DNA from: a virus
Length of the DNA stretch: 64,000 bases
Strand: one strand, 5' to 3'
IMG/VR virus record: IMGVR_UViG_3300014835_000052
Under the pieces are notes generated by a model that saw nothing but the letters and a program-made list of their open reading frames with translations, did no database searches and was not told where the DNA came from. The position numbers and the translations under genes were made by a program. Every line of letters begins with the position of its first letter. Positions within the stretch are counted from its first letter, which is position 1. This document shows positions 555 to 59,287 of the stretch, piece by piece.

Positions 555-658
555 TTGACTCCTGCCTCTAGATGAACGATAATTAGCCATACCTTGATAC
601 AGGGATGTTGGAAGAAAAGAAAAAAAGATGTTGACAACTTCTTAAATTACTGTAAAAT
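555..658 (+). promoter_or_regulatory. tandem sigma70-like early promoters
   Basis: TTGACT(555)-17-GATAAT(578) and TTGACA(631)-16-TAAAAT(653), each preceded by AAAAAAGATG. Confidence 0.8.
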
Positions 659-694
659 TAACCCATACTTTAAAAAAACAACAAGAGATAAAAA

Positions 695-1142
695 ATGTAC
701 AATTTAGAAATTAGTTTTGCAGGATTAGTAAAGAATAACAATGGGCTGTTCACATCTGTAAAACAGGCAGAGTTCTTACTATCAATGTGCGATAACAATG
801 TTTTTATCACCACTGGAAGATTTGGAAAATCATACTTTATCCTTTTTTTATCATTGTGATAAAGATGGTATTGTATCAGTGACTAAAGATACTGAAAAGA
901 AAAAAGATGTATTAACTTGGAAGCGTACCGCCGAAGGTGAATTGTCAATGGCTGACTTGGCTTACATTAAAAGGTTAAAATCGTCAATAAAAAAACATGA
1001 GAAAAGTATTCAAGAAAGAATTGAATCTAAATCTGATTATAAAGGAAAAGATATGATGGAATTATTTGAATCTTGCCAAGATAGTGATCTTATGAATATA
1101 TCAGATGCTCAACAGAAATTAATTGAACTGGGTGCTGCATAG
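695..1142 (+). pseudogene. early hypothetical gene with a +1 frameshift in a T7 run
   Basis: ATG 695 after the promoter reads MYNLEISFAGLVKNNNGLFTSVKQAEFLL; removing one T from 843-849 joins it to the 798..1142 ORF. Confidence 0.6.
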
Positions 1143-1149
1143 AAACCCA

Positions 1150-1181
1150 TAGCCAAGGATGGCTTAAACTATACCTTCTTT
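1150..1181 (+). repeat. 32-bp intergenic leader repeat with CC-AAGGAT-GG hairpin, copy 1
   Basis: 31/32 identical to 1667-1698. Confidence 0.85.
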
Positions 1182-1203
1182 CAAACAACTAGGAATTAAT
1201 ATC

Positions 1204-1659
1204 ATGACTGACTTAAAAAAATCAAATAAAATAAAATTAGGCACCTACAATAATGAAGTTATTTATTTAACCAAACACACTTGGGATTGTGATTGGTATT
1301 GGGGAATGGGTTACGTAGGCAACAGAAACTGTCATTTTCATATTGACAGCTTAATAACTGGTGAATGTGAAGTTGATAAAATTTTCAGTGAAACCTAGAT
1401 TACGCAAACCACATGGTGGGTTATTCGTGATTTATTCAAGCAAGCGTATTCGTTAAAGGTTGCGGCGGAAACTTATCGGTATGGTGCTCATCAAATATCA
1501 AAGCCTGGAATTACCGATATTCTAAAATGTCAATCTAAAGCTGATATTTTAAATGACGATTTAAAGATTTTACTAGATTCAATTTGGTTATATCTCAATA
1601 ATGAATTTGATGCTACATTAATTCAATCATTAGTTGACAGCTATGATGTAACTGCATAG
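1204..1659 (+). pseudogene. early hypothetical gene with an in-frame TAG
   Basis: Frame stays open for 86 codons after TAG 1396-1398 (ITQTTWWVIRDLFKQAYSLK...) to TAG 1657-1659. Confidence 0.6.
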
Positions 1660-1872: not shown

Positions 1873-1901
1873 TTGACACCTAGTTAAGGGTGACATATAA
1901 T
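1873..1901 (+). promoter_or_regulatory. perfect sigma70 consensus early promoter
   Basis: TTGACA(1873-1878)-17 bp-TATAAT(1896-1901), 33 bp upstream of ATG 1935. Confidence 0.9.
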
Positions 1902-1934
1902 TAACGCTTACCTTAACTCTTAAAGAGAAATATT

Positions 1935-2291
1935 ATGACTAACATTGAACAAATTCAACAACCTTATGACTGGGAAAATGCCCCAGTTATATGTGAGTTA
2001 AATGGATCTAAATGGATTCTTGGGCCAGAAGCCGATGAAGAAGAACTGGACTGGGATGCTGCAATTGAATGGTGTACATCCGTTGGTGGAGAACTACCAC
2101 CAAGAGAAGTGTTATTAATGTGCTATATGAATGAAGATATTAAAAAAGAATTTGCTGCGACCTGCTGCTGGTCTAGTACGGAGTTTACGGCTACCAGTGC
2201 TTGGTACCAGTTTTTCACCAATGGCAGCCAGAACTACGGCATTAAGGCTATTGCGACCTATGTTCGTGCGGTCAGGAGATTAGATATTTAA
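1935..2291 (+). CDS. stand-alone DUF1566/Lcl-like C-type lectin-fold protein; remote DGR target (target 2)
   Basis: WDAAIEWC...LP...WSSTE...AW...YVRAVRR motifs; the 3' end is a copy of the TR. Confidence 0.85.
   Translation: MTNIEQIQQPYDWENAPVICELNGSKWILGPEADEEELDWDAAIEWCTSVGGELPPREVLLMCYMNEDIKKEFAATCCWSSTEFTATSAWYQFFTNGSQNYGIKAIATYVRAVRRLDI
2152..2282 (+). repeat. DGR variable repeat VR2
   Basis: Ungapped 131-bp manual alignment to the TR: 21 mismatches, 18 at TR adenines. Confidence 0.9.
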
Positions 2292-2356
2292 AAATTAACT
2301 TGATCCGATGAGGACTTTATAACCAATATAAACAACTTGAAGATTAAGAATAGTCG

Positions 2357-2393
2357 AAAGGCTCTAGACTTCAATATCTAGAGCCTTTTTTTT
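2357..2393. terminator. intrinsic terminator between convergent genes
   Basis: AAAGGCTCTAGA-8 nt-TCTAGAGCCTTT followed by a T run. Confidence 0.8.
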
Positions 2394-2400
2394 AATACAG

Positions 2401-3162
2401 TTATTTCATTTCTAGAACAGAAACTCTTGTTAATAATTCTTTATTAGAAGCTAGTAAAAACCCAATAAGAGCCGAATATTCAACAGATTTAACACCTTCA
2501 TTATTAGTGTGAATCAATTCAGGCAAAATATCTTCTAGTTCTTGGGCAATAACGCCGTAAGATTTAGTTCCAGTTTTCTTCCATGTAAATTCTACTGGAT
2601 TGATTTTAGAAATAATTTCCTCACTATTAGAAATTGTTTTGATATTATTTTTTAAAGTCTTATCTGAAGTAGAGGAAAAATTAGTAGCAGATACTGTACC
2701 AGAACTAGGGTTATACTGTAGATTAGTTGAGGATGTAGATACCGCAGTAACATTTCCTGTTGTAGATCCACCAAAATATAAATATCTGGTTGCATTTGAT
2801 GTAGTATCATCAGATACTGTAATGATATTGGATTTTAAATTTAAAGTGGTTTGTGTGGCAGTACTGATGGGTTTTAATAAATCAGTAGTATTATCAACAT
2901 TACCTAATCCCACCATTACTTTATCAATACCAGAAACAGTTCCAGTGAAAGTTGGAGAAGTCAATGGTGCTTTCAGCGTTTCAGTAGCAATTGCTCTAGT
3001 AGTTTCAATGCCTATGGCAGTATCTACTTCCGATTTAGTGTAAGTTATTATTTGTGCTGCTGCTGCATCCGCAGTTGTTTTTAAATTTAATAGGTTGTTG
3101 TCCATGTCAGTGAAAGATAGACGACCGCCTTTAGATGCTCTTGTTACTATTGTTGTAGTCAT
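2401..3162 (-). CDS. short fibre protein with C-terminal intramolecular chaperone (peptidase S74) domain
   Basis: SDKTLKNNI...F.WK...YGVIAQELE motif; paralogous to 14145..14837. Confidence 0.75.
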   Translation of the reverse strand: MTTTIVTRASKGGRLSFTDMDNNLLNLKTTADAAAAQIITYTKSEVDTAIGIETTRAIATETLKAPLTSPTFTGTVSGIDKVMVGLGNVDNTTDLLKPISTATQTTLNLKSNIITVSDDTTSNATRYLYFGGSTTGNVTAVSTSSTNLQYNPSSGTVSATNFSSTSDKTLKNNIKTISNSEEIISKINPVEFTWKKTGTKSYGVIAQELEDILPELIHTNNEGVKSVEYSALIGFLLASNKELLTRVSVLEMK

Positions 3163-3218: not shown

Positions 3219-6044
3219 TTAAACGTATAAAGACTCAGAAAATGCTGCAATGGCAGCAGCAATAGCATTATCTACTTCAGTTTTAGTATAAGTGGTCTCT
3301 TTAGTTGCTAATAATGATTCAGCAGTTATTGCTCTAGATATTTCAGATGCTAAATTTGTAGTTAAAACACTTTCACTACCTGATGCTCTAGAAGTTTCAA
3401 CAGCAATTGCCGCATTTCTTGAACTTATTTCAGTAGTAATAGCCGTAGATCTATTAGATATTTCAGAAGTTAAATTTGTAGTTAAAACATTTTCAGCAGT
3501 AGTTGCCCTAGAAGTTTCAACACCAATAGAAGAAGCGATATCTATATTAGTCATTGCATCTGTAATACCATACCCAATAAGTGTAGAGGGTTTTCCAATT
3601 ATCACTGAAAAATTAGGTGTGGCAGAAGATATAGCAGTATCTACTTGGGATTTTGTATAAGTTGTTAATTGATCAGATTTTAAGGAATTTTGTAGATCTA
3701 CATACGTTTTATCTGCTTTTAACAATAAAGAATTATTAACTTCAGAAGCATTTATTTTTAATGCTTCTGCCGCAGTTGCTCTAGTAATTTCATTAGAAAC
3801 TATAGTAGATAAAGCAGAAAGGTTTGATGCAGTTGCAGTAGCAGATAATGCAGAAGATACAAATACTTCAGTAGCAAGGGCGAATTCTTGTCCTGTTTGT
3901 CCCGCAATCCATTTACCCAATGTTTCATCAAATATTAATCGCACTCTAGCCAAATCACCACGATCAACTTCAATACCGGCATATCTTAATGATACTCCAG
4001 AACCTATCTCTCCTTTATTTACAGTGATGATATTATCTTGAACTGTGAGATTTGCTGTACTAATAGCAGTAGTAGTTCCAGATACTGTTAAATTTCCAGC
4101 AACAGTTAATGACCCAGAAACACTTTGATTGCCTTGAATATTGATAGATGGTGAAGTAATTACAACTTGAGTGCCAGAAGATATTCTAGCCAATGATCCA
4201 GAACCTATTGCTTGAAAAACTACATCCGCATTTGTACCATTTGTTTGTATAGTAGTGGATGTTTGTGAATCAAGAATTAATTGACCAGTTCCAGTAGTTG
4301 CAATTCTCATTCCTTGATTATTATCTGCAGTGATTTGAATCGTATTAGCAGAAGAACCAATAACAGGTACACCATCAATATAAAGTGTATTAGCATCTAA
4401 ATGTAATTCTTTGGTGTATATAGAATTAAATTTATCAGTTGGTGATCCAATATTAGAAATACCTGATATAGAAGGTAGAATATCACCAGCAATAGATAAT
4501 CCTTTCACATAAAAATCTTTAGTTAAAGAGCCTGATGTTGATAGTATTGATAATTCATAGTCTACATATGATTTATCTGCTTTCAATACTAAAGAATTGG
4601 CAACATCAATTGAGTTTGCTTTCAACAAGTCTTGACTATCAACATATGTTTTATCTGATTTAATATCTAGTATCGTTTGTACAGGAATTGATACTGGTTT
4701 AGAAATATCTGATGTATTATCTACATTGCCTAATCCTACCATTACCTTATCAATACCAGAAACAGTTCCAGTGAAAGTTGGTGATGCAATAGGAGATTTA
4801 GTATTTACAATTATTAAAGCGTTTGATATATCTGTTGAATGGATAACATCTAATTGGGTTTCAGCAGCAATAGCACGATTTGATTCATTGGTTACAGCAG
4901 CAATTCTGTTTGCAGTTTCTATACCAATTGCGGAAGTAGTAGCAGATATAGAAGATCCATCTGTAATACCATAGCCAGATAATGTACTTGGTTTATTCTT
5001 TAATTCCGGAAATTGTATATTTAGAATATCTCTACCATCAATATTAATTCTACTTCCAGTTCCAATTAATTGCCAATATAATGTATTTGATGTTGGGATA
5101 CTTTCATTTTCATATAATGCTTTATAGATATTGCCATTGTCATAAACGACATCATTTATCAAATAGCGAGTGCCATCAACAATAGTATGATTTATAGACC
5201 ACTGTGCTGCAGTGATAGCAATAACTGGAGTATCTATTAAATCACTATAAGATCCAGTTTTAGCAACAGTTCCTAGGGAGGAATCTAACATTGTTATAGA
5301 ATTTTCTAAAACGGATTCCGCCGTATTTGCTCTAGTAATTTCACTAGCAAGATCAGAAACAGCAGATGTAGATAATGCTGCAATAGAAGTAGATAATGAG
5401 CCTTCAGATGCTTGAAAAGCAGCAACCAATTCTGTTAAACTATTTAATGCTATTGGATCTGTATTACTAATGATATTATTAATTTTGGTATCTAATACTA
5501 AATCTGCAGAAGTTCTTGCAATACTTTCAGCAGTAACATTTGCCATAAAAGCAATATCATTATTATTGACAGAAAGAACTCCAGAATTATCTGTTAAACT
5601 AATATTGCCAATATTTAATTGTTGTGTGGCAGAAAGTGTGGTTGAATTAAGATACTGCAGAGAGAATAAAACTGCTGTACCAATCATAGCAGATGTAAAT
5701 AAAATTCTGCATGAATTAGAATCAATAATTTCTAAATTAGCAATTATAAGGTGGTGATTTTCATCATATACGAAGTATGCAAAGTCGTTGGAATTAAAAT
5801 TGTGGGTTATAACCCAAACGGTACTAGCAACCCCTTGTGTATGCAAATGAGATGCTTGTTTTACACCAATTGGCTGCCAAGAAAAAAATCCAGACCCATT
5901 GGCTATTTCTGTATATATGTATGGTACACCGTCTTTTACAACAATTGTTCTTGGGGATGGATTATCGGGGAAATCAGAAAAGTTTTTACTGAAACTTAAA
6001 GCCCCAGCTAATTCTAAATCACCCAAAACTTTAATATTTGACAT
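3219..6044 (-). CDS. long fibre-like virion protein with coiled-coil segments
   Basis: Repeated ETSRA(T/I)(T/A)AE motifs, beta-rich middle, position among fibre genes. Confidence 0.6.
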   Translation of the reverse strand: MSNIKVLGDLELAGALSFSKNFSDFPDNPSPRTIVVKDGVPYIYTEIANGSGFFSWQPIGVKQASHLHTQGVASTVWVITHNFNSNDFAYFVYDENHHLIIANLEIIDSNSCRILFTSAMIGTAVLFSLQYLNSTTLSATQQLNIGNISLTDNSGVLSVNNNDIAFMANVTAESIARTSADLVLDTKINNIISNTDPIALNSLTELVAAFQASEGSLSTSIAALSTSAVSDLASEITRANTAESVLENSITMLDSSLGTVAKTGSYSDLIDTPVIAITAAQWSINHTIVDGTRYLINDVVYDNGNIYKALYENESIPTSNTLYWQLIGTGSRINIDGRDILNIQFPELKNKPSTLSGYGITDGSSISATTSAIGIETANRIAAVTNESNRAIAAETQLDVIHSTDISNALIIVNTKSPIASPTFTGTVSGIDKVMVGLGNVDNTSDISKPVSIPVQTILDIKSDKTYVDSQDLLKANSIDVANSLVLKADKSYVDYELSILSTSGSLTKDFYVKGLSIAGDILPSISGISNIGSPTDKFNSIYTKELHLDANTLYIDGVPVIGSSANTIQITADNNQGMRIATTGTGQLILDSQTSTTIQTNGTNADVVFQAIGSGSLARISSGTQVVITSPSINIQGNQSVSGSLTVAGNLTVSGTTTAISTANLTVQDNIITVNKGEIGSGVSLRYAGIEVDRGDLARVRLIFDETLGKWIAGQTGQEFALATEVFVSSALSATATASNLSALSTIVSNEITRATAAEALKINASEVNNSLLLKADKTYVDLQNSLKSDQLTTYTKSQVDTAISSATPNFSVIIGKPSTLIGYGITDAMTNIDIASSIGVETSRATTAENVLTTNLTSEISNRSTAITTEISSRNAAIAVETSRASGSESVLTTNLASEISRAITAESLLATKETTYTKTEVDNAIAAAIAAFSESLYV

Positions 6045-6536: not shown

Positions 6537-9005
6537 TTAGATATTACCTAATGATTGTACAGCAACTTTGATGATTGAGGCCTCAGCCAAATATACTTTC
6601 AAAGTATTAGTATCAACTTCTTCTACAGAAACGATGTCATTTCTATAAGAACCATCAGCACGTTGAATTAACACAGTAAAAGTGACAAAGTTTGCAGCCA
6701 AGTTATGTGCAATAACATGAGTAGTAGCAGCAACACCTGCTTGGAATGTGAAGTTAGTAGCATTATAATCACTACGGATTGCAGTATCAGCAACAGCACG
6801 AGCAGCGGCTTCAGCACTAACAGCATTAGTCAATACCAATTCAGCAGCACGAGCAGTAGTTGCTTCAGTAGCAATAGCAGTAGTTAATACTAATTCAGCA
6901 GCAGTAGCGCGAGTTGCTTCAGCATCAATAGCAACTTGAAGTACACCATCTGCAGTAGTACGTGCAGTTGCTTCAGTAGCAACAATACCATCAGCATATA
7001 CTTGAGCAGCAGTTTGAGCAGAATCAGATTTGCTAGTAGCATCATTAGATGCAGCAGCAGCAACAGCCAATTCAGCAGCAATTGCACGAGCAACTTCTTG
7101 AGATAAAGCCAAATCAGTAGCAACATCTTTAGCAACCAATTCATCAATAGCAGAAACAATTGTTGATTTAGAGATAGTAGTTAAATCAGCAAGATTACCG
7201 ATTTTACCATTTACTTGGCCTTCAACAGTAGTTACACGACTATCTAATGCAGAATCGCCAGCAATTCTGTCAGCAACTTCAGTTGACAAATTAGTAGTTA
7301 AAACACCTTCAGCAGCAGTAGCACGAGTAACTTCAGCACTAACAGCGGCAGTTAAAACACCTTCAGCGGCACGAGCGGTGGTTGCTTCACTAGAAACAGC
7401 AGTAGTCAATACAACTTCGGCAGCACGAGCAGTAGTTGCTTCACTAGAAACAGCAGTAGTTAAAACACCTTCAGCAGCACGAGCAGTAGTTGCTTCTGCA
7501 ATAATAGCAGCACTAAGATCGGCTTCAACGCTAGTTGCACGAGTAATTTCAGCATTTAATGCAGTAGTAGAAGCACCAGTCAAAGAAGCGATTGAAGCAA
7601 GAATGTCTGTATCTGCAGTGTTGAAATGTGACAACAATTCAGAAATACTATCAAGAGCAGCAGGATCAACATTGTTCAGTACATTGTCAATACGAACACC
7701 CAATGCAGATTCTGCACCAGTTGCACGAATAACTTCACCAGCAATAGACGCAGTTAACGCACCTTCAGCATTACGTGCAGTAGTGGCTTCAGCAGCAACA
7801 GCAGTAGTCAATACACCTTCGGCAGCAGTAGCACGAGCAAGTTCTGTACTAACAGCAGTAGTCAAAACACCTTCAGCATCAGTTGCACGAGTAACTTCAG
7901 CAGAAACAGCAGTAGTTAAAACACCTTCAGCAGCAGTAGCACGAGTAACTTCAGCAGAAACCGCAGCAGTTAAAACACCTTCAGCCGCACGAGCAGTTGA
8001 TGCTTCACTAGAAACCGCCGCAGTCAGAACGCCTTCAGCAGCACGAGCAGTAGTTGCTTCAGTAGCAATAGCAGTGCTTAAAGAGGCTTCAACACCAGTT
8101 GCACGAGTTACTTCAGCAGACAATGCTTGTGAATTAGTAAGATCACCAGATACACGAGCAGCAGATTCTGAGGACAAATTGTTAGTAAGCAACAATTCAG
8201 CAGCAGTAGCACGAGCAACTTCAGCCAAAGTAGCATTAGTGCCAGCAGTTTCAGCAGCACGAGCAGTAGCGGCTTCATCCGAAATAGCATAAGACAAATC
8301 AGATTCTGCACTTTGAGCACGACTAACTTCAGTAGAAACAGCAGTAGTTAAAACGCCTTCAGCCGTAATAGCACGAGCAGTTTCAACGGTAACACGACCA
8401 CCAAGATCACTATCACCAGCAATACGATCAAGAACTTCTTGAGCCAAGCCAGATTCTAGAGTAGTAGCACGAGTTTCTAAAACTGTGTCACGACCATCAA
8501 GTACTGCTTCGGCGGCTTGAGCACGGATAGTTTCTGTACCAACAGCAGTAGTTAAAGCACCTTCAGCAGCAATAGCACGAGCAGTTTCATCAGACAACAA
8601 TCCTGTGACGACCACAACTTCAGCATCAACAACGGCTTTAGCAGCAGCAATTTGATTAGCAACTGTAGTAGCAAAATTTGCATCGCTACCGATAGCAGAA
8701 GCTAATTCTTTTAAAGTGTTGAGGAGATCAGGTGCAGCATCAACCAAGTCTGCAATTTTTTGATCTGAATAGGCTTCAGCAGATGCTAAAACATCAGAAA
8801 GATCTTGGGGAATAGCAAACGGATAAACAACAATAGCACCATTTGCATCTAAGGTTGAGAATTTTACTTTTTTATCAGTTGAGTTAAACCAAATTCTGCC
8901 TGGTTGAACTGGGATTGGATCAGAAGCCAAACGCTCTACATTTAAGTTTTCAATCCATGCATTATTTGCTAACGAAATACCGTGAAAAATTGGAAAATTA
9001 GACAT
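6537..9005 (-). CDS. Ala-rich coiled-coil fibre protein with about 18-aa repeats
   Basis: Many EVTRATAAEGVLTTAVSA-type repeats; strongly biased codons (GCT/GTT/ACT/CGT); own terminator. Confidence 0.7.
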   Translation of the reverse strand: MSNFPIFHGISLANNAWIENLNVERLASDPIPVQPGRIWFNSTDKKVKFSTLDANGAIVVYPFAIPQDLSDVLASAEAYSDQKIADLVDAAPDLLNTLKELASAIGSDANFATTVANQIAAAKAVVDAEVVVVTGLLSDETARAIAAEGALTTAVGTETIRAQAAEAVLDGRDTVLETRATTLESGLAQEVLDRIAGDSDLGGRVTVETARAITAEGVLTTAVSTEVSRAQSAESDLSYAISDEAATARAAETAGTNATLAEVARATAAELLLTNNLSSESAARVSGDLTNSQALSAEVTRATGVEASLSTAIATEATTARAAEGVLTAAVSSEASTARAAEGVLTAAVSAEVTRATAAEGVLTTAVSAEVTRATDAEGVLTTAVSTELARATAAEGVLTTAVAAEATTARNAEGALTASIAGEVIRATGAESALGVRIDNVLNNVDPAALDSISELLSHFNTADTDILASIASLTGASTTALNAEITRATSVEADLSAAIIAEATTARAAEGVLTTAVSSEATTARAAEVVLTTAVSSEATTARAAEGVLTAAVSAEVTRATAAEGVLTTNLSTEVADRIAGDSALDSRVTTVEGQVNGKIGNLADLTTISKSTIVSAIDELVAKDVATDLALSQEVARAIAAELAVAAAASNDATSKSDSAQTAAQVYADGIVATEATARTTADGVLQVAIDAEATRATAAELVLTTAIATEATTARAAELVLTNAVSAEAAARAVADTAIRSDYNATNFTFQAGVAATTHVIAHNLAANFVTFTVLIQRADGSYRNDIVSVEEVDTNTLKVYLAEASIIKVAVQSLGNI

Positions 9006-10278: not shown

Positions 10279-11349
10279 TTAAATTCCTATAATTTTTGTT
10301 AAATTTTTATCAAATCTTACATTTAATAATGATTTGATATGAACTCTTTCTTTAAATTGATTACAATGAATTAACATTCCAAAGTAACTATTGACAACTT
10401 GTTTAAGATTATTACTATAGAGTTTACTATGTAAATTTTCAATAGTCGTCCTTCTTATATACTTACAAAATGGCTTTATTATATATCCAACAAAATTAAT
10501 ACCCATATCTACAGTATTTATTTCTAATTTATTTGGATGGAAATCTAATCCTAATTTATTGAAAGTGTATATTTCTATTTTTCGATAAATCCCTTCAAGG
10601 TCTTTTCCTGATTCACCCATTAATAAAATATCATCTACATATCGTATGTAATATTTTACCTTCAACTCATGCTTGATATATTGGTCTAATCCATTAAGAT
10701 AAACATTGGCAAAGAATTGACTAGATAAATTCCCTATTGGCAATCCGAATCCTTTTTTAGCATTGAATAAACTTTTATGTTTTGGTACTTTATTTAATAA
10801 TTCTTCATTACTTTTAATAAAACAATTTTTAGTTGGATCATTATGGAGAATTATCTTAGTTAAATTAAACCACCAAGGATCTGTAATTTTTTTGCTTAAT
10901 ATTTCTTCTAAAATATTCTTATTAATAGATACAAAAAAATTTGCTATATCAGCCTTAAGGAATGATGCCTGTTGTGTGTGATTTTTAGTTACTGATCTAA
11001 TGTTTTTCTGAACTTTAATAGATGATTTTAATGTACCCTTTCCAGGAATACAGGCATAACTGTCATGGATGAAAGATTTATGAAATTGATCAGAATAACG
11101 ATTATATAAAATATGGTGAACTATTCTGTCTCTAAAACTAGCAGCCCAAATTTCTCTCGCTTTTGGTTTAGTAACAACAAAACATATAGACATTCCTGGT
11201 TCATATGTATTATTGATTAAATCATAATATAAATCCATCACATTTCTATTAAGATGTTCTTCAAACTTTTGAACACTTAAAGTGTTTTTCTTACCCTTTC
11301 TACAATCAAAATACGCTTGAAATACTTCAGATTCGGTTAAATCACACAA
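10279..11349 (-). CDS. DGR reverse transcriptase (ORF is open to 11439; likely start TTG 11349 or ATG 11376)
   Basis: GLPIGNLSSQFFAN (DGR-type SQ motif) and YIRYVDD; AGGAG lies 8 nt before TTG 11349. Confidence 0.95.
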   Translation of the reverse strand: MCDLTESEVFQAYFDCRKGKKNTLSVQKFEEHLNRNVMDLYYDLINNTYEPGMSICFVVTKPKAREIWAASFRDRIVHHILYNRYSDQFHKSFIHDSYACIPGKGTLKSSIKVQKNIRSVTKNHTQQASFLKADIANFFVSINKNILEEILSKKITDPWWFNLTKIILHNDPTKNCFIKSNEELLNKVPKHKSLFNAKKGFGLPIGNLSSQFFANVYLNGLDQYIKHELKVKYYIRYVDDILLMGESGKDLEGIYRKIEIYTFNKLGLDFHPNKLEINTVDMGINFVGYIIKPFCKYIRRTTIENLHSKLYSNNLKQVVNSYFGMLIHCNQFKERVHIKSLLNVRFDKNLTKIIGI

Positions 11350-11353
11350 GATA

Positions 11354-11484
11354 TAATCTCCTGACTGCACGAACATAGTTCGCATTAGTCTTATTGTTGT
11401 TGCTCTGGTTGCCATTGTTGAAATTCTGGTTCCAAGCATTGGTAGCAGTAAACTCCGTACTAGACCAGTAATTGGTCGCAGTAA
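11354..11484 (-). repeat. DGR template repeat TR
   Basis: 131 bp, 44 adenines, 12 AAY codons in the VR frame; matches 12004-12134 and 2152-2282. Confidence 0.97.
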
Positions 11485-11607: not shown

Positions 11608-11964
11608 TCACTCAACATTCTGCCCTCTTTGTGTTCCTATCCAACCCTGAACCTGCCTCCCAATTGAGTCAGTCAAGACTGCCAAATCTGAATATCCCTT
11701 TACATTAATAATATGTATATCTTTACATAATAAAAGTAACATTTCAACTACTTGTAATCTTTCAATAATCTGTAACAAATGTATCCTTTTATCGGTTACA
11801 GAATTGGCTTTGTATATAAACACTACCAATTCAATGACTTCATTGCGTATCTTATCACCTAAAGAATATTTAAAATCCTTTGGGAAATGTTTGGTCTTTT
11901 CTGTGACCAATTTAAGAAGTTCATATGTAGTCTTATAAACTGGAAGATGCTTATATTGTGCCAT
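11608..11964 (-). CDS. avd: DGR accessory variability determinant (Avd-like four-helix bundle)
   Basis: 118 aa, LPVYK...FPKDFKYSLGDKIR motif, located between target and TR. Confidence 0.9.
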   Translation of the reverse strand: MAQYKHLPVYKTTYELLKLVTEKTKHFPKDFKYSLGDKIRNEVIELVVFIYKANSVTDKRIHLLQIIERLQVVEMLLLLCKDIHIINVKGYSDLAVLTDSIGRQVQGWIGTQRGQNVE

Positions 11965-11994: not shown

Positions 11995-14085
11995 TTAAAT
12001 AACTAATCTCCTGACTGCACGAACATAGATCGCAATAGTCTTATTGATGTAGCTCTGGTTGCCAAGGCGGAAATTCTGGTTCCAAGCATCGGTAGCAGTA
12101 AACTCCGTACTAGACCAGTAAGTGGTCGCAGTAAATGCTTCTGTTCCTGACACAGTTATGTATAAAGAAACTGCTGTTTGTGTTGGAGAGACAGCAGTAT
12201 AAGCAGCACCCGATGGAATACTGTTAGCATTTGCCCCATATCCTGTACCATCTGAACCATATCCCCCTGCCGCTTTAATTCCTATATTATTTGTGGTGGT
12301 TGTGGGTTTAAATGCTCTATAAACAACTTCCAATTCATCTCTGGCTGGCAAATACCAATCAGAGAAACCACCAATACTTAAATTATGGCAATATGTAGCA
12401 GCAGGATACAAGGTAGATCCAGCATTAAACATTGCCAAAGTAGCAGCAGGGCCATTGGTTAAAGTTTGAACACCAGTAGGACCAGCGTCATTAGTAGTTT
12501 TCCACATTACTGAAGTAATTTCGCCCGATGCTTTAGGTGCTACAATGATATAATAACCAACACCAGCATCTGTAATCTTACCTGCATAATAGCCTCCACC
12601 ATAAGATTGCCCAATAGTAGTTGGGCCAAAAGATGCAGCAGTAGTGAAAGAAGTTGGATTAGACCAGGAAGAATAAACCCCATTAGAGTCTTTATATCTA
12701 ACTCTCCAATAATAAGGTGTAGATACAACAAGAGTTGCAGTGGGGATTATATAAGAAATACTAGTTCCAGTAATATCTCCAGTACTAATTAAAGTAGTAA
12801 TGAAATTTATACTAGTAGATACTTGCCACTGGGAAGCACTCATGATATAACCTTTTGTATCTTGGAATGCATTCCCTGTAAGTGTTGGCGTTTGTCCTAA
12901 TCCGCTTGTAGCATTTGTGGGACTAATATTTGTAGGGGTAGTGACTTGTGGAGTAATAATTTCATGAATTGATACTACTTGTCCGGTAGAAGTAGAGCCT
13001 AGTGAATCCACCATATTAACTGTAAATGTAATATCTTGTACAATAGCGGATGCTGGTGCAGAAAAGGTTATAATTTCCCCAGAAGTGATATTAGATGTTT
13101 TAGAAAAGGTAAAGGCTGGTGTGCCATTTGTGATAGAATATGTAAAGGTTGCCCCATTTGTAGCAACACCTCCAGTAAAACTGATATTGTATCCCGAAGT
13201 TAATTGGATGACTTCAGATGGTGCAGTTACTATAATAGTACCTGTTGGGGCGGCATGTGTGGTAGTATTAGTTGTATGTCCAACAGGCTGAGAATAATTA
13301 CCAAAATTATCAACAGCGACAACTGATATAGAAAGTGCTTGACCTAAAGTAGCCGGGGCGGTAAAGGTTTTAGTTGCTGTATTATCGGTAGCAGATACGG
13401 AAGTAACATTACCATTCCAGTCTGTAATATTGAATGATGATATGGTACCATTAATAAGTGATGATACACCCACCATAGTAAATGTAAATGGTAGTGAAAC
13501 CACTACAGTTGGTAATGTATAAGTGACTGATGCAATATTATATACAACGGGAGGTATCCAGGCTGGGGTAGAACCATCTGTAGTTAATAGTTTATTGGCA
13601 TTTCCAGTTTGTGATGGTAATCCATTATTACTTGTGGATTGTTCTAATTTCCAGTTTTGGTTGGAACTACTATAAAGTAAAGAAATATAAGATCCAGTAA
13701 TATTTAATAATAAAGATGTAGGGTTAAATTCTACAGATTTCCCATTACTTAAGACAGTAATATTATTAACACCAAAAGTGTTAGAAATATCTATAATGCC
13801 AATTTGATCCCCATCTGTAGGGTTAATAGGCAGAGTAATATTAAAAGGATTTAAGGTAGAATCTACTCTAACTAGATCATTAATATCAGCAGTATAATTT
13901 GAAGTTTTAATAGTAGTTGGTTTTAGTCTACCTATAGCAGAATCAGACCAAGTAGGAGTAGATGTACCAACAGAAGTCAACACTTGACCTGCAGTACCGG
14001 TAGAATTATTTAGTGAAATAGTCCCACCTACAATGAAATTTTTACTATCATCTATGACGGTTACACCGCCGATTTTTAAAGCCAT
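11995..14085 (-). CDS. tail fibre/receptor-binding protein with C-terminal DUF1566-like CLec domain; DGR target 1
   Basis: Fibre-like N-terminus, Ig/FN3-like middle, WYLPARDEL...YWSSTE...YVRAVRR C-terminus containing VR1. Confidence 0.9.
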   Translation of the reverse strand: MALKIGGVTVIDDSKNFIVGGTISLNNSTGTAGQVLTSVGTSTPTWSDSAIGRLKPTTIKTSNYTADINDLVRVDSTLNPFNITLPINPTDGDQIGIIDISNTFGVNNITVLSNGKSVEFNPTSLLLNITGSYISLLYSSSNQNWKLEQSTSNNGLPSQTGNANKLLTTDGSTPAWIPPVVYNIASVTYTLPTVVVSLPFTFTMVGVSSLINGTISSFNITDWNGNVTSVSATDNTATKTFTAPATLGQALSISVVAVDNFGNYSQPVGHTTNTTTHAAPTGTIIVTAPSEVIQLTSGYNISFTGGVATNGATFTYSITNGTPAFTFSKTSNITSGEIITFSAPASAIVQDITFTVNMVDSLGSTSTGQVVSIHEIITPQVTTPTNISPTNATSGLGQTPTLTGNAFQDTKGYIMSASQWQVSTSINFITTLISTGDITGTSISYIIPTATLVVSTPYYWRVRYKDSNGVYSSWSNPTSFTTAASFGPTTIGQSYGGGYYAGKITDAGVGYYIIVAPKASGEITSVMWKTTNDAGPTGVQTLTNGPAATLAMFNAGSTLYPAATYCHNLSIGGFSDWYLPARDELEVVYRAFKPTTTTNNIGIKAAGGYGSDGTGYGANANSIPSGAAYTAVSPTQTAVSLYITVSGTEAFTATTYWSSTEFTATDAWNQNFRLGNQSYINKTIAIYVRAVRRLVI
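12004..12134 (-). repeat. DGR variable repeat VR1
   Basis: Exactly 650 bp from the TR; 10 mismatches, all at TR adenines; none at the 87 other positions. Confidence 0.97.
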
Positions 14086-14134: not shown

Positions 14135-14142
14135 TATTTATA
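14135..14142 (-). promoter_or_regulatory. T4-type late promoter upstream of the DGR operon
   Basis: TATAAATA on the minus strand, about 50 bp before ATG 14085. Confidence 0.75.
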
Positions 14143-42068: not shown

Positions 42069-45000
42069 ATGCAAGATTTACTTCAAAAACAGGCCAATGC
42101 AATAACGGATACCCGTATAAACCCAACATTTGAAGATAAATCTAACCCTTCAAATAAAATAACAAATTTGGGTAGTATTTCATCAAATATTAGTATTATA
42201 TCCGATAGTATTAAAGAAATACCAAAATTAATAAGAGATGATACTAATTCCACACAAATAGAGTCTGATAAATTAGATAAGTTTAATAATCAGCATATAG
42301 CCGAATTAAAAAAAATATTGATTGCTGTTGAAAAAATATCATTACAACCACACTATATATCTGATACTAAAGAAAGCAATATATCATTACAACCAAAAGT
42401 TTTATCAGTAAAAGACAAATTCAAAAGTATAATAGGTATCAGTAAAAAAATTAATAGATATGATAATACTATTATCAAAAATATCGTTCCTAATATATCT
42501 CCAAAATATAAAGACAGATTGACAGAAAACACCAATCTAGCAGTTAACCCAGTAGCAGTTAACCCAGTAGCAGTTAATCCCACTGTTAATCCAGTAGCAG
42601 TTAATCCCACTGTTAACCCAGTAGCAGTTAATCCCGTAGCAGTTAATCTAGTAGCAGTTAACCCAGTAGCAGTTAACCCAGTAGCAGTTAATCATACTGT
42701 TAACCCAGTAGCAGTTAATCATACAGTTAATCCAGTAGCAGTTAACCCAGTAGCAGTTAACCCAGTAGCAGTTAACCCAGTAGCAGTTAATCCAGTAGCA
42801 GTTAATCCAGTAGCAGTTAATCCAGTAGCAGTTAATCATACTGTTAATCCAGTAGCAACTAATTTATCATCTGTTAAAGAAATAACTCCAAATGTTGATG
42901 CAATGGATAGATCTACAATGTCTATAAAATCAGTCGCTAAATCTCTTATTAAAGATATAAAACCTGCTATCGATAGCAATTTAAATAATTCTCTTGAAAA
43001 TAAATTAGAAGCTGAATCAACCCAACGCAAATTTGAATCTAATGAAATATCATTAATGGAGAATCAAAATAAAATATTAACAGATAGTTTAATTATTCAA
43101 AAGAAGATATTAGAGAAAATGGATTTGTTAAAAAGTGACAATTCACAACAACAGGCAGTATGTTGCTGCGGGGATAATAATACCCCAAAAGGTCTTTTTA
43201 ATAGAGAACCAGTAGAAAAGAAGAAACCTGGTGTTAGTGATAACAAATCAGATAAATTGAGTAAAGATTCTGTAGATAAGGTAAAAAAGAAAAGAATGTC
43301 ATCGGGAAAATTTGGAGCAGCGTTAGATGTTGTATCCACTGCCGCTGATGTTACTTCTATAGCTACAAATAATTCAGGCCAATCTAATGTTATAGAAAAC
43401 ATATCAACTGCGGCAGATCTTGCTTCTACTGCGGCAGATATGATTCCAAATCGCACCCCATCTACAACTGGTACTGGTATATTGGAAAGGGGTACAAAAT
43501 TCTTAAATAAAATTCCCGGAGCTAGTATTGCAAAAAATGCCTTTAGTATGGTTTCAAAAGTGGCAGCCCCACTTGCTATAGCATCTGGAGCTATAGCATC
43601 CGCAGATGTATATAATTCATCATTTGGTGCTGGGGAAAAGGAAGTATTATTAAAATTAGTTAAAGAAAAGGCTATTGATTATAACTTTTCAGATTCGGAA
43701 GTATTAAATTGGAATAAAATAGAATCACTACCCAAAGAAGATTTAGAGAAATTAATTAGTGTAGATAAATTTAATAACATAGATACCAATAGATTTAGAG
43801 AAATAATAAAACAAAAAGATATTAAATCTATAGAAGATCACAAAGTTAAAGATGTCAAAAAAGATAATAACCTCAATTCTACAAGAGAATTGACCCAAGA
43901 AGTAGTTAAGCCAGAAACAACTAAACTAACAAAATCTGATACAATTAAACCAGAAGCGTTAAAAAAACTATCTGAAGAATCTGATGTTAATAGAATAAAA
44001 GATAGATTAGTTACAGAACACATTAAAAAGGGAGACAATGTTGCAGTAATGGATGCAAAATCTATATCAGATACATCATTGTTGAAACCCAAGTCTAATG
44101 AAAATAATGTGCCACATATTTCAGAATTATCTAGGAAAACGTCGATAGCACAACCCGAAGATATTAAGTCTAATAAAGAAAATATAAATGATACTTTCAA
44201 ATATACAGCATATACTCATACAGTAAACTTAAATAGTTCAAATACTGAGGATAGTATTAGACCTTTTGAAGCATCTATAGACATATCAAAACTAGATCAA
44301 AAAATTAAAACTAAATTAGAGAGTATGGTAAATAATACAGCGCCTATGTATTATAATAAACTAGAAAAAAGCTCAATTACAAGTGGTGATTTTGAAAAAT
44401 CAGATAATCATAAAATGGCAATCGCACATGCTGAATCCGATGCTATAAAACAATTATATAAAGACAATAACAACCACCCTATATCTGGGATAAAAATAAA
44501 TAGTAATGTGAGTTCTCATATCATATCTACTCCAGAAGGCATTAAACCAATAGGTATTAAATCAGAAGCTGTTACTCCAGAAGGTATTAAATCAGAAGCT
44601 GTTACTCCAGAAGGTATTAAACCAATAGATATTAAACCAATAGGTATTAAATCAGAAGCTGTTACTCCAGAAGGTATTAAACCAATAGATATTAAACCAG
44701 AAGCTGCTAATGCAAAATTAGAATCATCTTTTGTAGCAGGAATTCATGTTGTAGATGGAAAATCATTAAATCCAGAACAAGTTATGATTACCGATGTTGC
44801 TAAACAGATGGGAAATAAAACTAATCCAAAAATTCAAAAAGGATACGATTTAGCAAAGGGTGTTAATCCTATAAGCATCTTGCCTGAAATAACTCCACAA
44901 TCTATTGAGCCTAAGATTACTCAAGTAAAAAGTGATAACATTTCTAAAATAGATCCAAATGTTGCTAATATTATATATGGGAAATCCGCAGAAAATATAC

Positions 45001-45161
45001 CAAATGGAAAAAATACTGGAGATACTATAATCAATAATAACAATGTAACTACACCTATTAATAATGTGTCCAGTGTGTCGGACAATAGTATGCCATATAG
45101 CATTAGAAATGAAGAATCCTCTATTAATAAATTATTTGCATCAAGATTACAATTCTATTAA
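42069..45161 (+). CDS. gp29-like baseplate hub/tail length determinant
   Basis: Position after gp26/gp51; low-complexity long protein; C-terminal RNEESS motif. Confidence 0.55.
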   Translation: MQDLLQKQANAITDTRINPTFEDKSNPSNKITNLGSISSNISIISDSIKEIPKLIRDDTNSTQIESDKLDKFNNQHIAELKKILIAVEKISLQPHYISDTKESNISLQPKVLSVKDKFKSIIGISKKINRYDNTIIKNIVPNISPKYKDRLTENTNLAVNPVAVNPVAVNPTVNPVAVNPTVNPVAVNPVAVNLVAVNPVAVNPVAVNHTVNPVAVNHTVNPVAVNPVAVNPVAVNPVAVNPVAVNPVAVNPVAVNHTVNPVATNLSSVKEITPNVDAMDRSTMSIKSVAKSLIKDIKPAIDSNLNNSLENKLEAESTQRKFESNEISLMENQNKILTDSLIIQKKILEKMDLLKSDNSQQQAVCCCGDNNTPKGLFNREPVEKKKPGVSDNKSDKLSKDSVDKVKKKRMSSGKFGAALDVVSTAADVTSIATNNSGQSNVIENISTAADLASTAADMIPNRTPSTTGTGILERGTKFLNKIPGASIAKNAFSMVSKVAAPLAIASGAIASADVYNSSFGAGEKEVLLKLVKEKAIDYNFSDSEVLNWNKIESLPKEDLEKLISVDKFNNIDTNRFREIIKQKDIKSIEDHKVKDVKKDNNLNSTRELTQEVVKPETTKLTKSDTIKPEALKKLSEESDVNRIKDRLVTEHIKKGDNVAVMDAKSISDTSLLKPKSNENNVPHISELSRKTSIAQPEDIKSNKENINDTFKYTAYTHTVNLNSSNTEDSIRPFEASIDISKLDQKIKTKLESMVNNTAPMYYNKLEKSSITSGDFEKSDNHKMAIAHAESDAIKQLYKDNNNHPISGIKINSNVSSHIISTPEGIKPIGIKSEAVTPEGIKSEAVTPEGIKPIDIKPIGIKSEAVTPEGIKPIDIKPEAANAKLESSFVAGIHVVDGKSLNPEQVMITDVAKQMGNKTNPKIQKGYDLAKGVNPISILPEITPQSIEPKITQVKSDNISKIDPNVANIIYGKSAENIPNGKNTGDTIINNNNVTTPINNVSSVSDNSMPYSIRNEESSINKLFASRLQFY
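42534..42860 (+). repeat. coding tandem repeat (15/12-bp units, NPVAV/NPTV/NHTV)
   Basis: About 22 units of AA(C/T)CCAGTAGCAGTT and variants. Confidence 0.9.
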
Positions 45162-59171: not shown

Positions 59172-59287
59172 AAGGTATGGTTTATTATCTTACATTTTCA
59201 ACAGGGAGTCAAGTCTTTATTCATCAACCCCTGTCTCAAGGTATGGTTTATTATCTTACATTTTCAACAGGGAGTCAAGTCTTTATT
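59172..59287 (-). promoter_or_regulatory. tandemly duplicated early promoter (50-bp exact direct repeat)
   Basis: 59172-59221 = 59238-59287; each copy TTGACT-17-GATAAT. Confidence 0.9.

What the first reader, a model, noticed from the sequence alone, without database searches (positions are those of the whole stretch)
1873..2291. Second, remote DGR target is a small early gene, not a virion protein
Seen: 2152-2282 aligns without gaps to the TR (11354-11484, opposite strand, about 9 kb away) with 18 of 21 mismatches at TR adenines. The gene is a 118-aa stand-alone DUF1566/CLec-like domain with no fibre, signal peptide or membrane anchor. It sits behind a perfect TTGACA-17-TATAAT promoter, and its leader (ACCTTAACTCTTA.AGAGAAAT) is nearly identical to that of the early gene at 59150. 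Known: characterised phage DGRs such as Bordetella BPP-1 (mtd) diversify receptor-binding fibres, and remote targets are known in bacteria. Inference: one retroelement hypervaries both a late host-recognition fibre and an early cytoplasmic binder, possibly for host takeover, anti-defence or exclusion of competing phages. This is the strongest candidate for an undescribed system here.
Basis: partly seen in the sequence, partly recalled or inferred. Interest (0 to 1): 0.92.

Follow-up and report, generated by a model that had tools for sequence, protein, structure and literature searches.

The report
Second DGR target: small early lectin
A freshwater T4-like phage uses one mutagenic reverse-transcriptase cassette (a DGR) to rewrite both its tail-fibre tip and a 118-residue stand-alone lectin-fold protein with an early-type promoter; this is real and recently active, but the same two-target layout is already published for gut phages and the small protein's job is still unknown.

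Summary
Observation confirmed in full. VR2 (2152-2282, +) aligns without gaps to the TR (11354-11484, -). It has 21 mismatches, 18 at TR adenines (Fisher p = 1e-7).

The target is active. In a relative with about 98% nucleotide identity, 23 of the 25 differences across 1.1 kb fall inside VR2, and 20 of those 23 are at TR-adenine positions. That relative's VR2 also carries all four substitutions of its own TR.

The 118-aa protein is a complete DUF1566/Lcl-type C-lectin domain (AF2 pLDDT 91.5) with no hydrophobic segment. It sits in its own unit: an extended sigma70-like promoter shared with six other small-gene promoters, the ORF, and an intrinsic terminator. T4-type late promoters (TATAAATA) precede the structural genes, including target 1, but not this gene.

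It belongs to a family of about 116 small proteins. The same phage has paralogs beside dCMP deaminase and DNA ligase. A probable sibling contig has one behind DNA polymerase that is also diversified.

The early, non-virion reading is supported by sequence only. The claim that this is undescribed is not supported: Quimbyvirus (Benler 2021), Shimadzu, Bacuni and the Wu 2018 survey report distal second targets. This scan has also found the layout on other genomes. What is new is the T4-like host phage, the readable promoter class and the paralog family.

The parts
1873..1914 (+). Extended sigma70-like (early-type) promoter: TTGACA, 17 nt, TATAAT, then the TTACCTT start-region motif.
   Evidence: Exact consensus. 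It is one of 7 copies of an extended pattern found only in the small-gene regions of the window, against 0.1 expected in shuffles.
1910..1934 (+). Shared 5' leader and ribosome-binding region.
   Evidence: 21 of 22 bases identical to 59176-59155(-). The 32 nt before the ATG are identical to the leader of paralog P0008 in L036. No significant RNA structure.
1935..2291 (+). 118-aa stand-alone DUF1566/Lcl-type C-lectin-fold protein (P0001), the second DGR target.
   Evidence: No hydrophobic segment.
2152..2282 (+). VR2, the variable repeat.
   Evidence: 21 mismatches to the TR, 18 at A. 23 of the 25 differences from relative L008 fall here.
2259..2291 (+). Invariant 3' end of VR2 plus a VR-specific tail (GATTAG-N-TATTTAA), read as the IMH-like element. 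The TR diverges after GATTA.
   Evidence: Three-way alignment of TR, VR1 and VR2. The same tail follows the VRs of paralogs P0008 and P0003.
2356..2397 (+). Intrinsic terminator (13-bp stem and a T-run) that closes the one-gene unit.
11354..11484 (-). Template repeat (TR).
10279..11439 (-). DGR reverse transcriptase (YVDD and LSSQ motifs). Its 5' end overlaps the TR.
   Evidence: PF00078 1.9e-17 and phrog_1423 5.5e-94. Translation.
11608..11964 (-). Avd accessory protein.
   Evidence: PF22296 bAvd 2e-13 and phrog_3206 3.4e-26.
11995..14085 (-). Target 1: a 696-aa tail-fibre-like protein with an Ig domain and Lcl_C. VR1 lies at 12004-12134.
   Evidence: VR1 has 10 mismatches to the TR, all at A.
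14135..14142 (-). T4-type late promoter TATAAATA upstream of target 1.
   Evidence: The same motif lies upstream of other structural genes: 9811, 23318, 35451 and 38389 (-).
555..671 (+). Two further promoters of the same extended class, at the head of the + strand small-gene island.
59172..59278 (-). Tandem pair of the same promoter class. The proximal copy carries the near-identical leader before the gene that starts at 59150.
   Evidence: (D15).

Best explanation
Shown:
- The window is part of a T4-like freshwater myovirus.
- Its tail-fibre module carries a complete DGR on the minus strand: target 1, avd, TR, RT.
- The 118-aa gene at 1935-2291 is a genuine second target of that same TR, 9 kb away on the other strand, and has been rewritten recently.
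- The gene is one whole DUF1566/Lcl-type C-lectin domain. The adenine-templated codons form its variable surface.

Inferred mechanism:
- TR RNA is copied by the RT-Avd complex with misincorporation opposite adenines.
- The cDNA replaces VR1 or VR2, guided by the shared invariant 3' end and a VR-specific tail (GATTAG-N-TATTTAA) that the TR lacks.

Inferred from promoter grammar and gene context:
- The small gene is a self-contained unit of sigma70-like promoter, leader, ORF and terminator, of the phage's early or middle class. It is not a late virion gene.
- It is one of several dispersed paralogs sitting among replication and nucleotide-metabolism genes.

Most likely role:
- A soluble binder made in the infected cell. 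Its specificity is kept diverse in the phage population for some phage-host or phage-phage conflict, such as counter-defence, takeover or receptor masking.
- Its ligand is unknown.

My odds:
- real and recently active DGR target: 0.93
- not expressed from a late promoter: 0.7
- non-virion intracellular binder: 0.55
- specifically counter-defence: 0.25
For: A-specific mismatches:
- VR2 18/44 A against 3/87 non-A, p = 1e-7. VR1 10/10 at A.

Complete DGR:
- RT, Avd and TR are all present.

Recent activity:
- Relative L008 is about 98% identical over 10 kb.
- In the 1.1 kb around the gene, 23 of 25 differences lie in VR2 (23/131 against 2/972, p = 2e-20), and 20 of the 23 are at TR-A positions.
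- L008's TR differs from the window's TR at 4 positions, and L008's VR2 carries all 4.
- Two of the window's three non-A mismatches in VR2 (2165 C, 2233 A) equal the L008-type TR alleles.

Family signature:
- About 116 small homologs exist.
- Column entropy is 3.1-3.6 bits at AAY-templated positions and below 0.3 at the positions between them.
- 17 of 18 pairs with at least 95% identical scaffolds share only 46-67% VR identity.

Fold:
- AF2 pLDDT 91.5; top PDB match Lcl C-terminal domain, TMq 0.70.

Expression class:
- The promoter class has 7 copies, all before small non-structural genes.
- The gene has its own terminator.
- TATAAATA lies before structural genes, including target 1, and none lies on the + strand upstream of 1935.

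Gene context:
- L005 overlaps the window end at 99.95%, so it is the same phage.
- L005 carries paralog P0054 8 nt after the dCMP deaminase gene. L003 links P0054 to P0026, which lies after the DNA ligase gene.
- P0008 lies behind the DNA polymerase gene. It has 14 of 15 mismatches at A against this window's TR, and 30 of 31 differences from its ortholog lie inside the VR.
- In more distant phages the neighbours are RecT/YqaJ, RNR/ligase and a helicase.

No signal peptide or membrane segment in any of the 116 members.
Against: - No transcript, proteome or localisation data exist. The only RNA runs listed hold none of the sequence.
- The gene lies directly beside the tail-fibre module, convergent with a tail-fibre gene.
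- C20 and C47 are nearly invariant and could form a disulfide, which would be more typical of a protein working outside the cytoplasm. I could not measure their distance in the model.
- Relatives of this fold are adhesins or fibre tips (Lcl, Bd2740).
- Many family members have a short helical N-terminal extension that could trimerise like a fibre neck.
- TATAATTA inside the -10 region is one base from the late consensus.
- The window's VR2 keeps L008-type TR alleles while VR1 matches the present TR. Either VR2 is rewritten less often than VR1, or the contig is a recombinant or an assembly chimera.
- P0008 is not proven to lie on the same genome as the window: the contig ends do not overlap.
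Confidence: 0.6

Rival explanations
1. The 118-aa protein is a virion component. It would be a small adhesin or decoration subunit that docks onto a tail fibre or the capsid, in the manner of Mtd on BPP-1 fibres or gp38 on T2 fibres, so the DGR diversifies two host-recognition surfaces.
For: - The gene abuts the tail-fibre genes.
- It shares its VR sequence space with the fibre-like target 1.
- The closest solved folds are adhesin or fibre-tip domains.
- The Cys pair is conserved.
- Homologs have N-terminal helical extensions.
- Authors of two-target gut phages favour an adhesion role for such proteins (PMC8143477, PMC10743442).
Against: - The gene has a sigma70-type promoter of the class used by the small early genes, its own terminator, and no TATAAATA. 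Structural genes, including target 1, do have TATAAATA.
- It is transcribed opposite to the fibre genes.
- Paralogs are embedded in and co-oriented with polymerase, ligase, dCMP deaminase and denV/frd genes. One lies 8 nt behind the deaminase gene.
- It has no domain other than the lectin fold that could dock it to a virion.
Confidence: 0.27
2. VR2 is a relic. It was once a target, or is a duplicated fibre tip, and is no longer rewritten. Its A-biased differences are fossils and the three non-A mismatches show decay.
For: - There are three non-A mismatches.
- The same phage carries diverged paralogs with little or no A bias: P0026 p = 0.68 and P0054 p = 0.015. A frameshifted copy also exists.
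- The exact P0001 allele recurs in three assemblies.
Against: - Two genomes that are 98% identical differ at 23 VR2 positions and at only 2 in the flanking 970 nt.
- L008's VR2 tracks all four substitutions of its own TR.
- Two of the three non-A mismatches are explained by TR polymorphism.
- Logan contigs of several freshwater runs break at 2113 and carry alternative letters at 2167, 2189, 2197 and 2202. This is weak evidence: they are contigs only, and paralogs or the TR may have been laid there.
Confidence: 0.06
3. The small protein masks the phage's receptor or excludes superinfection. It would be a soluble copy of the fibre's binding site, made early, that occupies the receptor or its precursor. 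That would keep progeny and competitors from being lost on infected cells or debris, a role like that of T5 Llp, which is encoded beside the T5 receptor-binding protein gene. The Llp comparison is from my own knowledge and was not tested.
For: - VR2 and the fibre's VR1 are drawn from one TR.
- The gene is adjacent to and convergent with fibre genes and has an early-type promoter.
Against: - No signal peptide or lipobox, so it has no route to the cell surface before lysis.
- The VR1 and VR2 alleles differ from each other.
- The other paralogs are not near fibre genes.
Confidence: 0.07

Closest known systems
Quimbyvirus ('Quimbyviridae') DGR with two targets (Benler et al. 2021, Microbiome, PMC8008677; read)
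   Same: - One TR serves a C-lectin target next to the tail-fibre genes.
- It also serves a second C-lectin target that is distal to the structural module and on the opposite strand. [quoted passage not shown]
- Activity was shown, as here, by adenine-specific differences between near-identical genomes.
   Different: - Quimbyvirus is a temperate Bacteroides gut phage, not a T4-like freshwater phage.
- Its distal target sits in a methyltransferase and nuclease island.
- No promoter-class argument and no dispersed paralog family were reported.
- Its RT is frameshifted; the RT here is a single ORF.
Roseburia phage Shimadzu VR2 in orf43 (Cornuault et al., bioRxiv 10.1101/575076; read), and Bacteroides 'Bacuni' phages' distant target ORF43 (Hedzet et al. 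2021, PMC8143477; read)
   Same: - An adjacent tail target plus a distant second target of unknown function.
- Both VRs were shown to vary at adenine positions.
- In Shimadzu, VR2 appeared less strongly selected than VR1. That fits the window's VR2 lagging behind its TR.
   Different: - These are cultured gut phages of about 40 kb.
- Their second targets are larger and were interpreted as adhesins.
- Here the target is a minimal 118-aa domain with its own early-type promoter and terminator, in a large T4-like genome.
Non-adjacent targets and short DUF1566-only targets in the DGR survey of Wu et al. 2018 (NAR, PMC5758913)
   Same: - 'Many examples' of phage-associated DGRs with one adjacent and one non-adjacent target within 50 kb.
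- About half of the DUF1566-class targets are short and domain-only.
- The 5' boundaries of mutagenesis vary.
   Different: This is catalogue-level description only. It gives no expression class, no gene context and no T4-like example.
Bordetella phage BPP-1 DGR (mtd-avd-TR-brt). Established knowledge, also described in PMC10743442 and PMC8144416.
   Same: RT, Avd and TR are present, mutagenesis is adenine-specific, the VR lies at the C-terminus of a C-lectin fold, and an IMH-like 3' element differs between VR and TR.
   Different: - BPP-1 has a single adjacent target that is a trimeric fibre-tip protein.
- It has a GC-rich IMH with a downstream hairpin. No stable hairpin follows the VRs here.
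- BPP-1 is temperate.
Legionella Lcl C-terminal domain (PDB 8q4e), and LdtA, the DUF1566-class DGR target
   Same: Best structural match (TMq 0.70) and best sequence match among solved structures (E = 7e-6). The same DUF1566 C-lectin subtype.
   Different: Those are surface-exposed bacterial proteins with export signals, or with a collagen-like stalk. This protein has neither.

Membership tests
DGR target gene (variable repeat) | The VR is homologous to a TR and the differences are concentrated at TR adenines. | tested here: met
   18 of 21 mismatches at A; 18/44 A against 3/87 non-A, p = 1.1e-7.
DGR target gene (variable repeat) | A cognate DGR-type reverse transcriptase and an accessory protein (Avd) lie in the same genome, next to the TR. 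| tested here: met
   RT: PF00078 and phrog_1423, with YVDD and LSSQ motifs. Avd: PF22296 and phrog_3206. The TR lies between them.
DGR target gene (variable repeat) | The VR lies at the C-terminus of a C-type-lectin-fold domain, and the variable codons form a surface patch. | tested here: met
   AF2 pLDDT 91.5. Foldseek top hits are the Lcl C-terminal domain, Bd2740 and animal CTLDs. The VR covers residues 73-116 of 118. Surface exposure of the variable residues was not measured.
DGR target gene (variable repeat) | An IMH-type element at the 3' end of the VR that differs from the TR's IMH*. | tested here: met
   VR1, VR2 and the paralog VRs share GATTAG-N-TATTTAA after the common invariant stretch. 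The TR continues differently. Function is inferred. No BPP-1-like hairpin follows the VRs.
DGR target gene (variable repeat) | Evidence of ongoing diversification between close relatives or within a population. | tested here: met
   Window against L008: 23 of 25 differences inside VR2, and the VR tracks its own TR's alleles. Population reads are inconclusive because only contigs were available.
DGR target gene (variable repeat) | Mutagenic retrohoming demonstrated experimentally. | not testable with these tools
   The phage is known only from metagenomes.
Pfam PF07603 (Lcl_C / DUF1566) | Score above Pfam's gathering threshold. | tested here: not met
   24.4 bits against a cut-off of 34.9 for this sequence. 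Many family members carry a precomputed PF07603 hit and the fold matches 8q4e. Membership is therefore supported by relatives and by structure, not by this sequence's own score.
T4-type early or middle (pre-late) gene | A host sigma70-type promoter (-35 and -10 boxes) directly upstream. | tested here: met
   Exact TTGACA-17-TATAAT. It belongs to a 7-copy extended promoter class restricted to small-gene regions.
T4-type early or middle (pre-late) gene | No late promoter (TATAAATA) upstream. | tested here: met
   No + strand TATAAATA occurs between 1 and 2776. The motif does precede structural genes. Caveat: TATAATTA in the -10 region is one mismatch from the late consensus.
T4-type early or middle (pre-late) gene | Transcript appears before DNA replication and late genes. 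| not testable with these tools
   No RNA run holds the sequence.
Virion structural protein | Late promoter, similarity to a known structural family beyond the lectin domain, or detection in virions. | tested here: not met
   No late promoter. PHROG and Pfam hits cover only the lectin and VR part. Virion proteomics is not available, so this remains open.

The most novel reading that the evidence does not exclude
A lytic T4-like phage keeps a dispersed multigene family of minimal lectin-fold binders. They are expressed before late genes from their own sigma70-type promoters and are continually re-randomised by the tail-fibre DGR. That would give the phage population a standing, antibody-like repertoire of intracellular binders against variable host or competitor proteins, for counter-defence or takeover. 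Paralogs drift in and out of coupling to the TR.
Probability: 0.25. Interest if true: 0.8.

Novelty: new member of a known kind. Interest (0 to 1): 0.47.

Why it matters
What phage DGRs do beyond host recognition is an open question. Distal second targets have been reported since 2018-2021, but no function or expression class is known for any of them.

T4-like phages are useful here because promoter classes can be read from the sequence. This case gives the clearest sequence-level argument so far that such a target is not a late virion gene.

It also shows that the small targets form a large family in freshwater phages. About 116 proteins were found, and many lineages have identical scaffolds with divergent VRs. 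Within one phage, the copies range from coupled to the TR, through decayed, to broken.

I found no paper in the held library describing a DGR in a T4-like phage.

The 118-aa domain is small, soluble-looking and confidently modelled. That makes it a practical object for binding and pull-down experiments.

Tried and rejected
- Near-identical phages in INPHARED: none. The protein search there gave only C-terminal hits of 34-40% identity to DGR targets of temperate phages.
- Whole genome of the window: none is held.
- RT search in five longer relative contigs: the only hit was the VR/TR overlap artefact. The contigs are 22-56% complete, so this says nothing about whether they lack a DGR.
- Read-level variation: only Logan contigs were available, not raw reads. 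At 80% likeness, paralogs, VR1 and the TR can be laid on VR2. I therefore count the alternative letters and the contig breaks at 2113 only as weak support.
- Exact-pattern scan of metagenome contigs with the 31 nt just 5' of VR2: no match. In viral contigs only the L008 contig matched.
- Conserved partner gene next to the paralogs: none found.
- Leader RNA structure: not significant (z = -0.87).
- Hairpin downstream of the VRs: none.
- Linking the polymerase-side contig (P0008) to the window by overlap: no overlap found.
- A search for 'HbP1' led nowhere. The PDB entry is the Lcl C-terminal domain.
- Chance repeat or plain duplication without a DGR: rejected because of the adenine bias and because the VR co-varies with its own TR.

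Full report
**What is there**

The window is part of a T4-like myovirus.
- It encodes a gp32-type SSB, a gp59-type helicase loader, baseplate wedge and hub proteins, a tail tube protein and tail-fibre proteins.
- Contigs that extend it carry gp13, gp14, gp15 and the terminase.
- Sequencing runs that hold it are freshwater or lake metagenomes.
- No whole genome is held, and no near relative exists among deposited phages.

A complete DGR lies on the minus strand at 10.3-14.1 kb.
- A T4-type late promoter, TATAAATA, sits at 14135-14142.
- Target 1 (11995-14085) is a 696-aa fibre-like protein with an Ig domain and Lcl_C. VR1 lies at 12004-12134.
- Avd lies at 11608-11964, the TR at 11354-11484 and the RT at 10279-11439. 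The RT has YVDD and LSSQ motifs.

**Checking the observation**

- VR2 (2152-2282, + strand) aligns without gaps to the TR over 131 nt with 21 mismatches. 18 are at TR adenines: 18/44 A positions against 3/87 others, Fisher p = 1.1e-7.
- VR1 has 10 mismatches, all at adenines.
- The promoter TTGACA-17-TATAAT at 1873-1901 is exact, one of two in 64 kb.
- The leader 1910-1931 matches the leader before the gene at 59150 at 21 of 22 bases.
- The ORF has no hydrophobic stretch.

**Is VR2 a live target?**

A metagenomic relative (L008/L009) is about 98% identical over 10 kb.
- In the 1103-nt block that holds the gene there are 25 differences. 23 of them lie inside the 131-nt VR2 (23/131 against 2/972, p = 2e-20).
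- 20 of those 23 lie at positions where the TR has A.
- The proteins are identical over residues 1-74 and differ only in the VR.

The relative's TR differs from the window's TR at four positions, and the relative's VR2 carries all four. So VR2 there was copied from its own TR.

Two of the window's three non-A mismatches (2165 C and 2233 A) are exactly the relative's TR alleles. The window's VR1 matches the window's present TR.
- So the window's VR2 was last written from an older or sibling TR.
- That implies homing into the remote site is less frequent than into VR1, or that the contig is a recombinant or an assembly chimera.
- This agrees with the scan note e1-5326644.

Only 2189 (T to G) remains unexplained. 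Contigs from other runs carry T there.

Laying Logan contigs shows breaks at 2113 and at the TR and VR1, and alternative letters at several VR2 positions. These are contigs laid at 80% likeness, so I count this only as weak support.

**The protein**

- AlphaFold2 with an 82-sequence alignment gives pLDDT 91.5 for one compact domain.
- The best solved matches are the Legionella Lcl C-terminal domain (8q4e, TMq 0.70), the Bdellovibrio Bd2740 C-terminal domain, and then animal C-type lectin domains.
- The best sequence match among solved structures is also 8q4e.
- The Pfam Lcl_C hit is below the gathering threshold for this sequence (24.4 against 34.9 bits). Many relatives carry the precomputed hit.
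- The VR covers residues 73-116 of 118.

**A family, not a single gene**

A search of about 5.8 billion proteins found 116 relatives of 108-195 aa, all metagenomic.
- In the alignment, columns templated by AAY codons of the TR have 3.1-3.6 bits of entropy. The interleaved W, S, A, Q, F, G and K columns are nearly invariant.
- 18 pairs have scaffolds at least 95% identical, and 17 of those pairs share only 46-67% identity in the VR. Diversification is therefore ongoing in about ten lineages.
- None of the 116 has a hydrophobic segment.

Locus L005 overlaps the window's end at 99.95%, so it is the same phage.
- It carries paralog P0054 about 8 kb beyond the window, starting 8 nt after the dCMP deaminase gene.
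- L003 links P0054 to paralog P0026, which lies after the DNA ligase gene.
- A twice-frameshifted copy lies between the ligase gene and P0026.

Further paralogs come from the same samples.
- P0008 lies directly behind the DNA polymerase gene, and P0003 lies between the denV and HD/frd genes.
- P0008 has 15 mismatches to the window's TR, 14 at A (p = 5e-7).
- P0008 differs from its ortholog P0023 at 31 positions, 30 of them inside the VR, while the flanks are 99% identical.

The other paralogs show weaker coupling to the TR.
- P0003 shows a weaker adenine bias: 17 mismatches at A and 12 at non-A.
- P0054 is weaker still, and P0026 shows none.
- So copies range from coupled to the TR to decayed.

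I could not prove by overlap that P0008 lies on the window's genome. Three things point to the same genome or a sibling.
- Its GC content is similar.
- The 32 nt before its ATG are identical to those before P0001's.
- Its VR fits this window's TR better than L008's TR (15 against 17 mismatches; 1 against 3 at non-A positions).

**Expression class**

- Seven promoters in the window fit an extended pattern: TTGAC[ACT], 16-18 nt, a -10 box, then TAC[CT]TT. Shuffled sequence gives 0.1.
- All seven lie before small genes in the two non-structural regions, 0.5-1.9 kb (+) and 59-63.4 kb (-). None lies before a structural gene.
- The VR2 gene has one of these promoters and ends at an intrinsic terminator at 2356-2397. 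It is therefore a one-gene unit, convergent with the fibre gene at 2401-3162.
- TATAAATA precedes target 1 and several baseplate and tail genes, but does not occur on the + strand upstream of 1935.
- No TATAAATA occurs within 130 nt upstream of any of the six paralogs examined.
- In more distant phages, family members are co-oriented with RecT/YqaJ, RNR/ligase and helicase genes.
- A temperate siphovirus whose RT is 61% identical has a 163-aa Lcl_C gene in its lysogeny-control region.

All of this favours expression before late genes and a non-virion role. It is inference from sequence only.

**Points against the non-virion reading**

- The gene sits next to the fibre module.
- C20 and C47 are nearly invariant and might form a disulfide.
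- Structural relatives are adhesins or fibre tips.
- Many homologs have short helical N-terminal extensions that could act as trimerising necks.

**Mechanism**

Shown: the parts of a DGR, the adenine bias and recent rewriting.

Inferred from established DGR biology (BPP-1):
- RT-Avd copies TR RNA with errors opposite adenines, and the cDNA replaces a VR.
- Here all VRs share the invariant 3' stretch and then a VR-specific tail (GATTAG-N-TATTTAA) that spans the last two codons and the stop. The TR diverges after GATTA. I read this as the IMH/IMH* distinction.
- No hairpin follows the VRs.

**Comparison with what is known**

It is not.
- Wu et al. 2018 list many phage-associated DGRs with a non-adjacent target within 50 kb. 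They note that half of DUF1566-class targets are short and domain-only.
- Benler et al. [quoted passage not shown]
- Shimadzu orf43 and Bacuni ORF43 are further cases with demonstrated variation.
- Baykov et al. 2023 discuss two-target cassettes.

This scan's earlier reports found the same layout in at least seven other genomes. Those notes gave me the leads to the papers above, which I then read myself.

What is new here:
- The host phage is a large, apparently lytic T4-like freshwater phage. I found no paper on a DGR in such a phage.
- The promoter grammar allows a timing argument from sequence.
- The small targets form a dispersed paralog family in different states of coupling to the TR.

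**Verdict**

- I file it as a new member of a known kind, with some variant features.
- Interest is moderate at 0.47.

Noticed in passing
L001:4661-4981 (also L002:2481-2801): A twice-frameshifted copy of the small lectin gene lies between the DNA ligase gene and paralog P0026. Its VR-like part still shows many differences from the TR at adenine positions (24 of 43). It is a likely pseudogene of the family.
   Followed up: partly
window 1135-1234 and 1652-1751: A 100-nt direct repeat (74% identical) with the core AGCCAAGGATGG and TAAACTATACCTT sits just upstream of two small + strand ORFs. The same core lies in the promoter spacers of paralogs P0008 and P0026 and downstream of P0003. It may mark a second promoter class, perhaps middle.
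   Followed up: partly
window 2165, 2233 versus L008:17988-18118: The window's VR2 carries the relative's TR alleles at two non-adenine positions, while VR1 matches the window's own TR. Either the remote site is rewritten less often, or the contig is a recombinant or a strain chimera.
   Followed up: partly
window 6537-9005 (-): An 822-aa fibre-like protein is built from many 54-nt (18-aa) Ala/Thr-rich repeats. Related repeats occur in the 941-aa protein at 3219-6044. Contigs of other runs show repeat-number joints here.
   Followed up: no
window 42498-42867 and 44526-44712 (+): Two arrays of 15-nt (pentapeptide) tandem repeats lie inside a 1030-aa ORF (42069-45161) that has no PHROG match.
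   Followed up: no
L005:3162-4509; L033:2393-4000: The phage, or a close sibling, encodes two-component signalling parts: two GerE-type proteins, one with a receiver domain, and a PAS-HisKA-HATPase-receiver hybrid kinase. They lie among early genes.
   Followed up: no
L001:5308-6009: A 233-aa protein made of MORN-like repeats (YW.T.EY.DGLVIRTD) lies directly upstream of paralog P0026.
   Followed up: no
L008:179-2635; L036:11408-12340: Faint or weak intein-splicing Pfam hits occur in the large terminase and in a 310-aa gene near uvsX in related contigs.
   Followed up: no
contig of P0145 (no DNA available): A temperate siphovirus whose DGR RT is 61% identical has a 163-aa Lcl_C gene among its HTH and integrase (lysogeny-control) genes, about 4.3 kb past the RT. 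This is another small non-structural candidate target.
   Followed up: no
window 10279-11439 / 11354-11484: The longest RT reading frame starts inside the TR. As a result, tblastn with the RT N-terminus 'hits' every VR of the family, an artefact to keep in mind when searching for RTs. In L008 the gene was called 23 residues shorter.
   Followed up: partly
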